Positions 1 to 1,167 of a stretch of 64,000 bases of DNA are shown here, piece after piece; the stretch's first letter is position 1, and every line of letters starts with the position of its first letter. Both the position numbers and the translations under genes were made by a program. The notes under the pieces were generated by a model. The model did no database searches. It was not told the DNA's origin and was given only the letters and a program-made list of their open reading frames with translations. The DNA comes from Rhizophagus irregularis (Eukaryota), in the NCBI RefSeq assembly GCF_026210795.1, contig NC_089436.1:620001-684000 (forward strand), written 5' to 3'.

Positions 1-705
1 TTACAACTAGTTGCTATAAATATTAAAGAAGAGGTAAGTCATTTCCTTACTGGATGAGTTTTTTTTTAAAAAAAAAAATCTGATAAGTATTAGCTATAGA
101 GTTACTTGGAGAAAGAGCAGAGAATCGGAAATTTTATACGAAACGTTCCTACTACCTTACAGGTATGGCCTAAAAATTATGCCGTATTTTAAGAGAATAT
201 CACATTAAATTTTTGTATGATATTCCAGAGAAATGAAAAAAAAGGAAGAGAAAAAAAAGGAACCTTGGATTCTAAGTTGGAGACCGAATTGTTTGAGAAT
301 GGAAATAGACGGAGTGATGATCCCAATTGCCACTCCATGGGATGTTCTTACCCTCCTTTATACAATCAACATTGGCGAACCTCCAATGCAGACTTTATTC
401 GATTATCAGATAGAATGGCTGTATCGACATTTAAAACAGTTAGCGAAGTGGATAATGATTTTAGAGCCAATGCACATGAAGATACAACTATGGCCGACAG
501 TAATAAATGTGGCGTGGAAATCAAACGACAAGGAAATCATGAAGGTCTCGTTCAGAGCGTCGCTAGTAGAAAACAGGAGTTCCAGAAAACAAATAGTAAA
601 GTTTCGACAGGAAGTCGATTTAGAGAATCACCATCTCTTTCCTCGGGACAATCATGGGAATTTGGTAAAGAATCAAAAGCCCTGGCTGTTCGGAAATTGT
701 GTTGA
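1..705 (+). CDS. Overlapping spliced reading frame (exons 1-33, 100-162, 229-705), hydrophilic, 5'-partial, ending at TGA 703-705 in frame with ORF 715-1167
   Basis: Introns gtaagt..tag (34-99) and gtatgg..cag (163-228) join in phase 0 to give LQLVAINIKEE-SYLEKEQRIGNFIRNVPTTLQ-RNEKK... with no stop until 703. Confidence 0.4.
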
Positions 706-868
706 AGTGAATACATGGTTCCATCTAGCGTCCCAGATACCCGAGCTACCAATCAGAACTTTTGCAATAATAACAGAAATACAAAAAACGAAACCATGTT
801 GCAGGAATTGCAAAACGGTGATGGCATGCAGAACACCAATGATCTTGCATCACTCATTAGATTATTGA
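233..868 (+). CDS. Putative zinc-dependent nucleic-acid deaminase-fold protein (YwqJ/toxin-deaminase-like), possibly extended upstream via exon 100-162
   Basis: 211-aa ORF with a CxE motif (WLFGNCVE) followed by a helix, a hydrophobic strand (IRTFAII) and a CxxC motif (KPCCRNC), in deaminase-fold order and spacing. The frame stays open across the GT-AG intron 163-228 into exon 100-162 (VTWRKSRESEILYETFLLPY). Confidence 0.55.
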   Translation: MKKKEEKKKEPWILSWRPNCLRMEIDGVMIPIATPWDVLTLLYTINIGEPPMQTLFDYQIEWLYRHLKQLAKWIMILEPMHMKIQLWPTVINVAWKSNDKEIMKVSFRASLVENRSSRKQIVKFRQEVDLENHHLFPRDNHGNLVKNQKPWLFGNCVEVNTWFHLASQIPELPIRTFAIITEIQKTKPCCRNCKTVMACRTPMILHHSLDY

Positions 869-1167
869 AGGATAAAGAACAATATCGTGAAGAGACAAAC
901 AAAGATGTCTTTACTAAAGGCGAGATCTACCTCTTCACCAAAATGTATGGCATTACTGATTTCAAACTCGTGTTTGCATACGATGATTCAGTCTTTTGGC
1001 TAGAAGACCATGATATTATTTATTTTTGGTCTCGCATAGATGATAGCATGATACGCGGAGGAAGAAATCTGAAAGAAGCTTTAACAAATTATCTTTTTAA
1101 TCAAAAAAATCTTTGTTATGTCGATGAGATTACTCGCGAATTGATATCAATAGATGCATATGATTAA
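715..1167 (+). CDS. SUKH-superfamily-like (SUKH-3/US22-like) putative immunity protein
   Basis: The C-terminal half (FKLVFAYDDSVFWLEDHDIIYFWSRIDDSMIRGGRNLKEALTNYL) resembles the SUKH beta-meander plus terminal G.sl.eaL..l helix. It overlaps the 3' end of the deaminase-like ORF by 154 bp. Confidence 0.5.
   Translation: MVPSSVPDTRATNQNFCNNNRNTKNETMLQELQNGDGMQNTNDLASLIRLLKDKEQYREETNKDVFTKGEIYLFTKMYGITDFKLVFAYDDSVFWLEDHDIIYFWSRIDDSMIRGGRNLKEALTNYLFNQKNLCYVDEITRELISIDAYD

What the first reader, a model, noticed from the sequence alone, without database searches (positions are those of the whole stretch)
233..1167. Candidate eukaryotic toxin-antidote module: deaminase-like ORF overlapping a SUKH-like immunity ORF
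Seen: ORF 233-868 has FGNCVE..IRTFAII..PCCRNC, and ORF 715-1167 overlaps it by 154 bp on the same strand in another frame. Established: [H/C]xE...PCxxC is the zinc site of the deaminase superfamily; YwqJ-like deaminases act as toxin domains in bacterial polymorphic toxin systems, where SUKH-family immunity genes lie next to the toxin. Inference: this is a toxin-then-immunity pair kept in an operon-like overlap inside an intron-containing fungal locus. It could be a selfish element, a nuclear-competition or incompatibility factor in a coenocytic fungus, or an antiviral/anti-TE mutator. Both family calls are by eye.
Basis: partly seen in the sequence, partly recalled or inferred. Interest (0 to 1): 0.9.

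Follow-up and report, generated by a model that had tools for sequence, protein, structure and literature searches.

The report
Deaminase gene overprinted by SUKH-like gene
This stretch of a Rhizophagus-like mycorrhizal fungus is a worn copy of a multi-copy gene in which two overlapping reading frames encode a deaminase-like protein and a SUKH-like protein, a pair that likely descends from a bacterial toxin-immunity cassette and would, if intact copies are still active, be a fungal toxin-antidote module of an undescribed design.

Summary
The ORFs and motifs are there as described. Both family calls made by eye gain support. Frame 2 (233-868) belongs to a conserved protein family: an exhaustive profile search found 56 relatives, and every one that covers the site keeps the Glu of G-N-C-x-E. 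Most also keep P-C-x-N-C. The profile matches bacterial YwqJ-type deaminase toxins (hhalign P 1.5e-5 to 3e-8; controls 0.2-0.8). The downstream frame-1 domain folds confidently and resembles SUKH-3 (P 0.0013). SUKH-3 is the immunity gene found directly after YwqJ toxins in 18 of 20 actinobacterial genomes sampled here.

The two-gene picture needs correcting. ORF 715-1167 is not a separate gene. In intact relatives, frame 1 is one ORF of 350-380 aa. Its disordered N-terminal ~200 residues are read over the whole deaminase ORF in the -1 frame.

The window copy is degenerate:
- its start codon is lost;
- exon 1 is frameshifted;
- it has a private TGA at 703;
- its C-terminal tail is truncated;
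- frame 2 carries three private changes at conserved sites.

Toxicity, immunity and translation of both frames are untested. About half of the frame-1-annotated copies cannot encode the catalytic Glu.

The parts
1..33 (+). Possible upstream exon (LQLVAINIKEE) followed by a gtaagt donor. It matches the start of one gene model of a close relative (P0065: ..QLVAINTKEE|YLLAMELLGD..).
94..162 (+). Remnant of exon 1 of the frame-1 gene. ATA at 96-98 stands where relatives have the start ATG (MELLGD..). The reading frame breaks between IELLGE (frame 3) and KEQRIGNFIRNVPTTLQ (frame 1).
163..228 (+). 66-nt GT..AG intron.
   Evidence: joint 159->226, cut +3, in one contig of X17 from a close relative. 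L001 lacks this stretch.
233..868 (+). Frame-2 ORF of 211 aa, a YwqJ-like deaminase-family protein. The Met that several relatives share (M-[NE]-I-D-G) is at 299-301. Private changes at family-conserved sites: FGAS->FRAS (codon with 554), CAE->CVE (702/703), PCxNC->CCRNC.
698..706 (+). Frame-2 codons C-V-E, the helix-2 zinc/catalytic motif. Relatives read C-A-E.
794..811 (+). Frame-2 codons P-C-C-R-N-C, the helix-3 CxxC zinc motif. The ORF ends 18 residues later.
229..702 (+). Frame-1 reading of exon 2. This is the N-terminal, predicted-disordered part of the SUKH-like protein, overprinted on the deaminase ORF in the -1 frame.
703..705 (+). Private in-frame TGA in frame 1. Relatives read CGA, or CAA in P0001. 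The site is a CpG.
715..1167 (+). The rest of the frame-1 ORF (150 aa from the first ATG after the TGA). The confidently folded SUKH-3-like alpha/beta domain corresponds to about 847-1164.
1165..1260 (+). Premature TAA plus a deletion. Out-of-frame remnants of the Lys-rich C-terminal tail that intact relatives keep (..KMGGKKQQKKKKNKKKH).
   Evidence: (loose end at 1164)

Best explanation
The locus is a degenerate copy of a multi-copy Glomeraceae gene whose exon 2 carries two long overlapping ORFs, and it likely descends from a bacterial YwqJ-deaminase/SUKH-3 toxin-immunity cassette.

Shown:
- Frame 2 encodes a roughly 180-210 aa protein of a conserved family with the zinc and catalytic signature of YwqJ-type deaminase toxins.
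- Frame 1 encodes a 350-380 aa protein. Its first ~200 residues are predicted disordered and are read over the deaminase ORF in the -1 frame. Its last ~115 residues fold confidently.
- Both ORFs are whole on one intron-less, mRNA-like contig of a relative (L001).

Inferred:
- The folded domain is a divergent SUKH-3.
- The pair came from bacteria.
- In intact copies the first AUG would give the SUKH-like protein, and leaky scanning to the frame-2 AUG would give the deaminase. The putative toxin could then never be inherited or transcribed without its putative antidote.
- In many copies the deaminase frame has decayed.

In this window frame 1 is broken and frame 2 carries private changes at conserved sites, so this copy is probably inactive.
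For: Frame 2 is a real protein family:
- The profile of three frame-2 products (A2) found 56 proteins at E<=1e-3 among 1.84e9 representatives (27 at <=1e-10). Those with names are from Rhizophagus irregularis or R. diaphanus.
- At 25-40% identity they keep one pattern along the whole protein: INVSWKS, FGAS, RQ.nD, LFPRD.nGN, W.FGNC.E.N.W, PDLPI..RT, PC.NC.
- In 22 core sequences: C1 22/22, Glu 22/22, C2 18 of 19 filled, C3 18 of 20 filled, W 19/22.
- Glu is present in 31 of 31 sequences where a regex that also allowed Lys located the motif.

Match to the YwqJ clade:
- All four clade features of Iyer et al. 2011 are met (passages read): Gx[CH]xE; an insert with a conserved His (xH.LFPRD); an insert between strand 3 and CxxC; truncation after helix 3 (18 aa after CxxC, against 12-25 aa in the bacterial toxins).
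- hhalign of the 22-sequence frame-2 profile against 16 Pfam-defined YwqJ domains gave P 1.5e-5. Against 6 toxins of Bacilli it gave P 3.2e-8. Controls gave P 0.22 (SUKH-3) and 0.82 (C-terminal domain).
- A2 against 150 column shuffles gave a maximum score of 18.8, against 48.6 observed.
- The A2 HMM against 2171 bacterial ORF pieces ranked only toxin ORFs on top. These included four loci fetched through SUKH-3 alone.

SUKH side:
- AF2 gives pLDDT 92-96 for residues 200-315 and <50 for residues 1-197.
- ESM look-alikes include a US22 cluster at 0.90 and SMI1_KNR4 at 0.85.
- The top 7 Foldseek rows are Knr4 (E 0.28-0.65).
- Seven SUKH structures are among the top 50 VIA rows.
- hhalign against 26 SUKH-3 domains gave P 0.0013. 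This is above all 100 shuffles.

Cognate pairing and geometry:
- SUKH-3 lies directly downstream of the YwqJ match in 18 of 20 actinobacterial genomes and 1 of 6 Bacilli genomes that hold YwqJ.
- The two domains are fused in one ORF in two genomes.
- In the fungus the frame-2 stop (866-868) lies at the start of the folded domain (~847).

Frame 1 is real too:
- 49 homologs, most covering 80-98% of a 352-aa ORF.
- All 4 indels between the window and L001 inside the ORFs are multiples of 3.

The window copy is worn.
Against: - No Pfam deaminase family hit at E<=1 for 42 frame-2 proteins, apart from AID at 0.16 in one. Pfam also barely sees the bacterial subgroup, though.
- With NCAE and CxNC masked, the hhalign signal vanishes (P 0.076 and 0.31). 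The link to bacterial toxins therefore rests on two motifs, their spacing and their flanks.
- AF2 on frame 2 with only 3 sequences gave pLDDT 34. No fold is shown.
- The PDB sequence hits are marginal (E 0.2-0.9).
- The SUKH evidence is weak in every single test: best VIA Z 4.3, Foldseek E >=0.28, and no Pfam or NCBIfam hit in 41 members.
- From frame-1-annotated proteins, the frame-2 Glu cannot be encoded in 17 of 35, and this state is scattered over the tree (>=12 changes). 9 of 39 have a forced frame-2 stop.
- Window against L001: omega is 0.75 (frame 1) and 1.21 (frame 2). 33 substitutions of close relatives look neutral in both frames.
- Translation of either frame, toxicity and binding were not tested.
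Confidence: 0.6

Rival explanations
1. Relic only. The family descends from a YwqJ/SUKH-3 cassette, but no present copy makes an active deaminase. Frame 1 (the SUKH-like protein) is the only functional product, and frame 2 survives as a slowly decaying fossil.
For: - The Glu is impossible in 17 of 35 frame-1-annotated copies, and this state is scattered on the tree.
- 9 of 39 have forced frame-2 stops.
- Substitution patterns look neutral.
- Many frame-2 hits are short or chimeric models.
Against: - Frame-2 proteins at 25-40% identity keep Glu 31/31 and C1 22/22, together with a whole-protein pattern. A fossil should lose these.
- Glu loss in frame-2-called proteins is 0/31, against 17/35 in frame-1-annotated proteins (Fisher P 1.9e-6).
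- Frame 2 is open and canonical in L001, which was fetched through the C-terminal domain only.
Confidence: 0.2
2. The two-gene model of the first reader. The products are the deaminase and a short stand-alone SUKH protein translated from an internal ATG, as in bacteria. On this view the long frame-1 N-terminal extension has no function of its own.
For: - The window has exactly this layout.
- The frame-1 N-terminal half is predicted disordered.
- In that half only Q114, L152, L189 and Q196 are nearly invariant, and L152 and L189 are the codons that give two frame-2 zinc cysteines.
Against: - Frame 1 is open over about 200 extra codons in dozens of diverged copies. Given frame 2 as coding, 5-13 stops are expected there.
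- The ATG at 715 is not conserved. L001 reads I at the matching site (EYIVPSS where the window has EYMVPSS), and several other relatives read I, F or V there.
- The TGA that creates the short ORF is private to this copy.
Confidence: 0.1
3. Chance. Frame 2 is an off-frame ORF of an orphan fungal gene, and its CxE..CxxC motif is a by-product of conserved frame-1 residues (L-C-R-N and L-x-E-L-P/Q). This was my own reading up.
For: - The motifs map onto conserved frame-1 leucines.
- There are no Pfam hits.
- The first stage scanned very many ORFs, so a rare motif is expected somewhere.
Against: - 56 frame-2 relatives share a conserved whole-protein pattern.
- Specific matches to SUKH-3-linked toxins go beyond the generic motif: W at -5, N before C, N at +2 after Glu, CxNC, and a C-to-C spacing of 35 against 36.
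- The downstream domain resembles the cognate immunity family.
- The frame-2 stop falls at the domain boundary.
Confidence: 0.05

Closest known systems
Bacterial YwqJ-type deaminase toxins with SUKH-3 immunity genes (polymorphic toxin systems; Zhang, Iyer and Aravind 2011, PMC3113570; Iyer et al. 2011, PMC3239186)
   Same: - The order is toxin domain, then immunity.
- The signature is W.x.NC[AG]E ... C.NC, with 35-36 residues between the cysteines.
- The toxin ends 12-25 aa after CxxC.
- The immunity domain starts at or just after the toxin stop.
- Fused forms exist in two genomes.

   Different: - The fungal pair lies in a spliced nuclear gene and is multi-copy.
- It has no secretion or LXG/Rhs-type N-terminal part that I could see.
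- The immunity-like ORF is extended about 200 codons upstream through the toxin ORF in another frame.
- Sequence similarity outside the two motifs is not significant.
Eukaryotic YwqJ-clade deaminases of basidiomycetes and expanded OTT_1508-like deaminases of fungi (Iyer et al. 2011; passages read)
   Same: They are toxin-derived deaminases taken up by fungi and expanded in a lineage. The authors proposed roles in non-self discrimination or in mutagenesis of selfish elements.
   Different: - The passages I read name Basidiomycota for the YwqJ clade, not Glomeromycotina.
- They describe no retained SUKH partner and no overlapping frames.
- I did not read the supplements.
Single-locus fungal poison-antidote drivers such as wtf of Schizosaccharomyces pombe and Spok of Podospora (recalled, no call)
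   Same: Poison and antidote are encoded by one locus, so they cannot be separated by recombination. The families are multi-copy and fast-evolving, with many decayed copies.
   Different: - wtf uses alternative starts in one frame, and Spok is one protein. Here the two products would come from two different frames.
- Drive is not shown here. No meiosis-linked biology is known to me for these fungi.
Overprinted (dual-coding) genes of viruses, and rare nuclear cases such as GNAS XLas/ALEX (recalled)
   Same: Two long ORFs in different frames lie on one mRNA. The younger frame is predicted disordered.
   Different: Here the two products correspond to a toxin family and its cognate immunity family.

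Membership tests
YwqJ-like deaminase clade (deaminase superfamily) | Gx[CH]xE at helix 2 (zinc ligand plus catalytic Glu) | tested here: met
   The window reads GNCVE and L001 reads GNCAE. C and E are 22/22 in the core alignment, and Glu is 31/31 where the motif was located.
YwqJ-like deaminase clade (deaminase superfamily) | CxxC (usually PCxxC) at helix 3, about 25-35 residues after the first motif | tested here: met
   The window reads P-C-C-R-N-C, so CxxC is present but strict PCxxC is not. In the 22-sequence core alignment, P precedes the first Cys in 12 sequences, and C2 is 18/19 and C3 18/20 of filled positions. The spacing is 35.
YwqJ-like deaminase clade (deaminase superfamily) | Clade-specific traits: an insert with a conserved His between strand 2 and helix 2; an insert between strand 3 and CxxC; truncation after helix 3 or strand 4 | tested here: met
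   xH.LFPRD lies in a ~45-aa insert, 8-9 residues lie between IRTxAI and CxxC, and the ORF ends 5-26 aa after CxxC in family members. The strands were assigned by eye, not from a confident model.
YwqJ-like deaminase clade (deaminase superfamily) | Significant match to the family profile | tested here: inconclusive
   Pfam PF14431 gave no hit at E<=1 for 42 members. My HMM of 16 Pfam-defined domains gave 4-7 bits, which is not above shuffles. hhalign profile-profile gave P 1.5e-5 against the same 16 and 3.2e-8 against 6 toxins of Bacilli, with controls at 0.2-0.8. The signal disappears when the two motifs are masked.
YwqJ-like deaminase clade (deaminase superfamily) | Deaminase fold (three-layer alpha/beta/alpha) | tested here: inconclusive
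   AF2 with a 3-sequence alignment gave mean pLDDT 34.
YwqJ-like deaminase clade (deaminase superfamily) | Deaminase activity or toxicity | not testable with these tools
   Needs expression and assay.
SUKH superfamily (SUKH-3-like) | Alpha+beta core of four helices, a beta-hairpin and a four-stranded meander (Zhang et al. 2011) | tested here: inconclusive
   The AF2 model (pLDDT 92-96) has 4 helices, a 4-stranded meander (240-274) and short strands at 214-216, 292-294 and 301-303. The order of elements differs in part, and the N-terminal helix-hairpin part of SUKH-3 seems to be missing.
SUKH superfamily (SUKH-3-like) | Structural match to solved SUKH proteins (2PRV, 3FFV, 2PAG, 2ICG, 3D5P, Knr4) | tested here: inconclusive
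   In Foldseek the top 7 rows are Knr4 but with E 0.28-0.65, and 3d5p has probability 0.51. In VIA: 3d5p Z 4.3 (69 aa, rmsd 2.7), 2prv 3.4, 2pag 3.4, 5j1b 3.2, 3ffv 3.1, 2icg 3.1, 9kbf 2.9. No row reaches Z >=5.
SUKH superfamily (SUKH-3-like) | Profile match to the family | tested here: inconclusive
   hhalign of 37 C-terminal domains against 26 SUKH-3 domains gave P 0.0013 and score 24.6 over 54 columns. The maximum of 100 shuffles was 19.8, and the controls against YwqJ gave P 0.8. Pfam and NCBIfam gave no SUKH hit in 41 members. ESM gave US22 at 0.90 and SMI1_KNR4 at 0.85.
Toxin-immunity (toxin-antidote) module | Toxin gene directly followed by its cognate immunity gene, with the linkage kept in relatives | tested here: met
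   The order and the junction match the bacterial pairs. Both parts are on L001. 9 of 56 frame-2 hits are models that also hold the C-terminal domain, and the other hits are too short to show it.
Toxin-immunity (toxin-antidote) module | The immunity protein binds and neutralises the toxin | not tested
No bench data exist.

The most novel reading that the evidence does not exclude
Intact copies are active toxin-antidote elements of a coenocytic fungus. One mRNA yields a nucleic-acid deaminase from one frame and its SUKH-type antidote from the overlapping frame. The pair behaves as a selfish, inseparable unit that spreads, duplicates and decays. It would act in competition between nuclei or hyphae, or as a mutator against transposons and viruses.
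Probability: 0.25. Interest if true: 0.95.

Novelty: new variant of a known kind. Interest (0 to 1): 0.8.

Why it matters
Toxin-derived deaminases in eukaryotes are known. A eukaryotic locus that keeps the bacterial toxin together with its cognate immunity family appears not to be described: two text searches found no such report for these fungi. Nor did they find a case where the immunity ORF is written over the toxin ORF in another frame.

If intact copies are active, this would give three things:
- a compact and testable toxin-antidote system in arbuscular mycorrhizal fungi, where conflict among co-existing nuclei is a long-standing open question;
- a natural example of about 600 nt of dual coding in a nuclear gene;
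- a new branch of small deaminases.

The finding also warns annotators. Public gene models of this family hop between the two frames.

Tried and rejected
1. My first reading was that this is a frameshifted pseudogene with a chance off-frame ORF. I held it. I dropped it after reading the YwqJ clade description, surveying the bacterial pairs and running the exhaustive search.

2. I argued that an ORF ending 18 aa after CxxC cannot be a deaminase. I rejected this because the YwqJ clade is described as often truncated after helix 3, and the bacterial toxins fetched here end 12-25 aa after CxxC.

3. I considered that P0002 shows an ancestral in-frame fusion of frame 2 to the C-terminal domain. P0002 is a heavily deleted copy, so I gave it no weight.

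4. Searches that found nothing:
- paralogs inside the window;
- longer homologs of frame 2;
- prokaryotic relatives of A2 by pattern scan;
- Viral contigs;
- earlier findings of this scan.
The metagenome scan gave one locus, L001. No whole genome is held for the window.

5. The set of 'unselected ORFs upstream of SUKH-3' was spoiled by wrong-frame picks: only 4 of 8 were real toxins. It gave P 0.009, and one of 100 shuffles came within 0.3 of the observed score (21.5 against 21.8). I do not lean on it.

7. An ESM lead remains unresolved. For frame 2 the top three clusters are unnamed Ascomycota clusters at 0.93-0.94, and one cluster with YwqJ-deaminase in 11% of its members scores 0.85.

8. 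The UniRef name 'PARP catalytic domain-containing protein' on P0039 and P0047 has no Pfam support.

9. RNA-like runs X17-X20 hold contigs of relatives, not of this exact copy. I therefore make no claim that this copy is expressed.
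Full report
**1. What is in the sequence.**
The window is AT-rich (GC 0.19-0.33 per 2 kb). Its genes are typical of Rhizophagus-like fungi. Three ORFs lie on the + strand at 217-1167:
- frame 1, 217..705 (162 aa);
- frame 2, 233..868 (211 aa);
- frame 1, 715..1167 (150 aa).

The two frame-1 ORFs are separated only by TGA at 703-705. 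Frame 2 reads GNCVE (codons 698-706) and PCCRNC (794-811) with IRTFAII between them. It ends 18 residues after the CxxC.

Contigs of four runs from four studies are letter-identical over 84-1400 (X2, X4) or 444-1045 (X1, X13). Two of these runs may be the source. The stops are therefore real.

**2. Frame 1 is a real gene family, and this copy of it is broken.**
One metagenome contig, L001 (1376 nt), was fetched with the C-terminal domain only. It carries an unbroken 352-aa ORF in the frame equivalent to frame 1 and lacks the intron.

That protein has 49 homologs at E<=1e-3 in R. irregularis, R. clarus, R. diaphanus, Glomus cerebriforme, Funneliformis caledonium and F. mosseae. Most cover 80-98% of its length. 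P0016 (358 aa) aligns to window frame 1 from 109 to 1164 with the stop at 703 inside the alignment.

Compared with relatives, the window has these lesions:
- ATA where they have the start ATG, and a frame break inside exon 1;
- TGA where all relatives' contigs read CGA (703 T>C in 3, 2 and 2 contigs of X18, X17 and X19);
- TAA at 1165 plus a deletion that removes the Lys-rich tail.

A GT..AG intron at 163-228 is shown by a spliced contig of a close relative.

None of 7 members scanned had a Pfam family at E<=1. All 41 members of A3, scanned at E<=10, gave only scattered single-member hits and no SUKH family. AF2 with 41 sequences gives pLDDT <50 for residues 1-197 and 92-96 for residues 200-315.

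**3. Both frames are kept open.**
L001 also has a 197-aa frame-2 ORF with canonical GNCAE and PLCLNC. It ends at the same tat-tga as the window.

| Assumed coding frame | Other frame | Stops expected (synonymous permutation / codon shuffle) | Stops observed |
|---|---|---|---|
| Frame 1 | Frame 2 | 2.7-3.1 / 6.8-8.3 | 0 (window), 0 (L001) |
| Frame 2 | Frame 1 | 4.8-9.7 / 9.3-12.8 | 1 (window), 0 (L001) |

In the non-overlapping C-terminal part, frame 2 holds 6-7 stops, as expected. All 4 indels between the window and L001 inside 280-1160 are multiples of three.

**4. My first reading, and why I left it.**
At first the evidence pointed to a chance off-frame ORF:
- Pfam gave nothing for frame 2.
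- AF2 with three sequences gave pLDDT 34.
- Pairwise omega was about 1 in every frame.
- From frame-1 protein sequences alone, the frame-2 Glu cannot be encoded in 17 of 35 members. Their frame-1 residue is Q, E, K or L instead of R or G.
- 9 of 39 members have a forced frame-2 stop, that is, Met followed by I, M, T, N or K.
- The Glu-possible state is scattered over the family tree (>=12 changes, not clustered). The two chimeric models P0001 and P0004 were left out of that tree.

The Glu codon is CGA in frame 1. It is a CpG whose two transitions give the window's TGA and the Q variants.

**5. The turn.**
Iyer et al. 2011 (Table 1 passage) define the YwqJ clade by four features:
- Gx[CH]xE;
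- an insert with a conserved His before helix 2;
- an insert between strand 3 and CxxC;
- frequent truncation after helix 3.

Frame 2 fits all four. I then took YwqJ (PF14431) and SUKH-3 (PF14433) loci from unnamed bacterial genomes.

| Family | Direct handles | Class of G001 (Bacilli-like) | Class of G005 (actinobacterial) |
|---|---|---|---|
| YwqJ (PF14431) | 1/5 | 6/301 | 20/301 |
| SUKH-3 (PF14433) | not searched | 11/301 | 21/301 |

- In 18 of the 20 actinobacterial genomes, and 1 of the 6 Bacilli genomes, that hold YwqJ, a SUKH-3 match lies directly downstream on the same strand.
- In two genomes the two domains share one ORF.
- An HMM of the three frame-2 products was scored against 2171 ORF pieces of these loci. 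It ranked only toxin ORFs on top: L128 (18.6 bits), L129, L157, L152, L159 and L156. The next hit scored 6.1 bits.
- Four of those loci had been fetched through SUKH-3 alone, and each toxin ends just before the SUKH-3 gene.
- Shared details go beyond the generic motif: W at -5, N before the Cys, N at +2 after the Glu, C-x-N-C, 35 against 36 residues between the cysteines, and a short tail.
- Pfam itself barely sees this bacterial subgroup.

**6. The exhaustive search.**
The frame-2 profile found 56 proteins at E<=1e-3 among 1.84 billion representatives.
- Of the ten I looked up, the four that carry organism names are from R. irregularis or R. diaphanus. The other six come from short ENA, Logan, SRC or JGI contigs without an organism name.
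- At 25-40% identity they keep one pattern along the whole protein, and most have canonical PCxxC.
- In 22 core sequences: C1 22/22, Glu 22/22, C2 18/19 filled, C3 18/20 filled.
- Glu was present in 31 of 31 sequences where the motif was located. Two of these read Y for the first Cys.
- Compared with 17 of 35 frame-1-annotated copies that cannot encode Glu, this gives Fisher P 1.9e-6. The two sets were ascertained differently.

hhalign results for the 22-sequence frame-2 profile:

| Compared with | Result |
|---|---|
| 16 Pfam-defined YwqJ domains | Prob 80%, P 1.5e-5 |
| 6 toxins of Bacilli | Prob 95%, P 3.2e-8 |
| SUKH-3 (control) | P 0.22 |
| C-terminal domain (control) | P 0.82 |

Masking NCAE and CxNC removes the signal. 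The link to the bacterial toxins is therefore at motif level, which is usual among distant deaminases. It is not proof of a fold.

**7. The SUKH side.**
Each test is weak alone, but they agree:
- ESM look-alikes include US22 at 0.90 (6 hits) and SMI1_KNR4 at 0.85.
- The top seven Foldseek rows are Knr4 (E 0.28-0.65), followed by 3d5p and 2prv.
- VIA lists 3d5p (Z 4.3), 2prv, 2pag, 5j1b, 3ffv, 2icg and 9kbf in its top 50, together with two other immunity proteins. No row reaches Z >=5.
- hhalign against 26 SUKH-3 domains gives P 0.0013. This is above all 100 shuffles and is null against YwqJ.

The match covers the meander and the last helix. The N-terminal part of SUKH-3 seems to be absent.

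**8. Reading.**

*Shown:*
- There are two conserved protein families in two overlapping frames.
- They are linked on L001 and in 9 of 56 gene models.
- The window copy is degenerate.

*Inferred:*
- The pair descends from a YwqJ/SUKH-3 cassette. My odds are about 0.75.
- The frame-1 N-terminal 200 residues are an overprinted extension. They are disordered, and two of their four nearly invariant residues, L152 and L189, are the codons of two frame-2 zinc cysteines.
- Both proteins would be made from one mRNA by leaky scanning.
- Many copies have lost the deaminase.

*In this window:*
- Frame 2 keeps C, E, C, C but has private changes at three conserved sites: FGAS to FRAS, CAE to CVE, and P to C before CxNC.
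- 33 substitutions of close relatives look neutral in both frames.
- I therefore take this copy to be inactive (about 0.7).

**9. Limits.**
- DNA was available for only two family members.
- There is no fold for frame 2.
- The co-fold was not available.
- No expression data exist for this exact copy.
- Paper supplements were not read.

Noticed in passing
public gene models P0001, P0003, P0004, P0005, P0043, P0045, P0069, P0088, P0104, P0114: Annotated proteins of this family are chimeras that switch between frame 1 and frame 2 through predicted mini-introns or indels. 13 of 56 frame-2 hits also contain frame-1 N-terminal text. Database entries for the family are unreliable.
   Followed up: partly
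window 42606-46043 (-) and 43174-44346 (+): A 1145-aa Thr-rich ORF holds tandem repeats of about 70 aa (..IQTTIETMIETDENGI.TETVTERTPDGNGINGITTVKV.TTKKDPSGKVIDT..) and has no Pfam family. A 390-aa ORF lies antisense to the repeats and probably reflects the repeat composition.
   Followed up: no
window 37291-38289 (-): An intact-looking Tc1/mariner-type transposase ORF (HTH_Tnp_Tc3_2 E 2e-16, DDE_3 E 1e-12).
   Followed up: no
window 13968-14579 (+), 20251-21594 (-), 22333-23556 (-), 33167-34858 (-): Four ORFs share an N-terminal ..LL.CLLVNR.WC.. motif. The first is F-box-like by Pfam (E 1e-6), while two of the other three were scanned and got no hit. This looks like a local cluster of a lineage-expanded family.
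   Followed up: no
window 58647-61030 (+) and 62013-63443 (-): Tandem protein-kinase ORFs (PK_Tyr_Ser-Thr / Pkinase), plus a divergent kinase-like ORF on the other strand.
   Followed up: no
L179 and L180 (unnamed actinobacterial genomes G588, G525): The YwqJ-deaminase and SUKH-3 domains lie in one ORF of 410-416 aa with no stop between them. These are natural toxin-immunity fusions.
   Followed up: partly
P0097, P0118, P0119 (R. irregularis): A divergent branch of the frame-2 family is annotated as stand-alone proteins of 227-317 aa with a longer N-terminal part, ending 24 aa after PCSKC. Whether a SUKH-like ORF overlaps or follows them could not be seen without DNA.
   Followed up: no
window 703 and the same codon in relatives: The codon for the frame-2 catalytic Glu is CGA in frame 1, a CpG. 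Its two transitions give the window's TGA and the frequent R-to-Q variants, which would be Glu-to-Lys in frame 2. The active site therefore sits on a mutational hot spot.
   Followed up: partly
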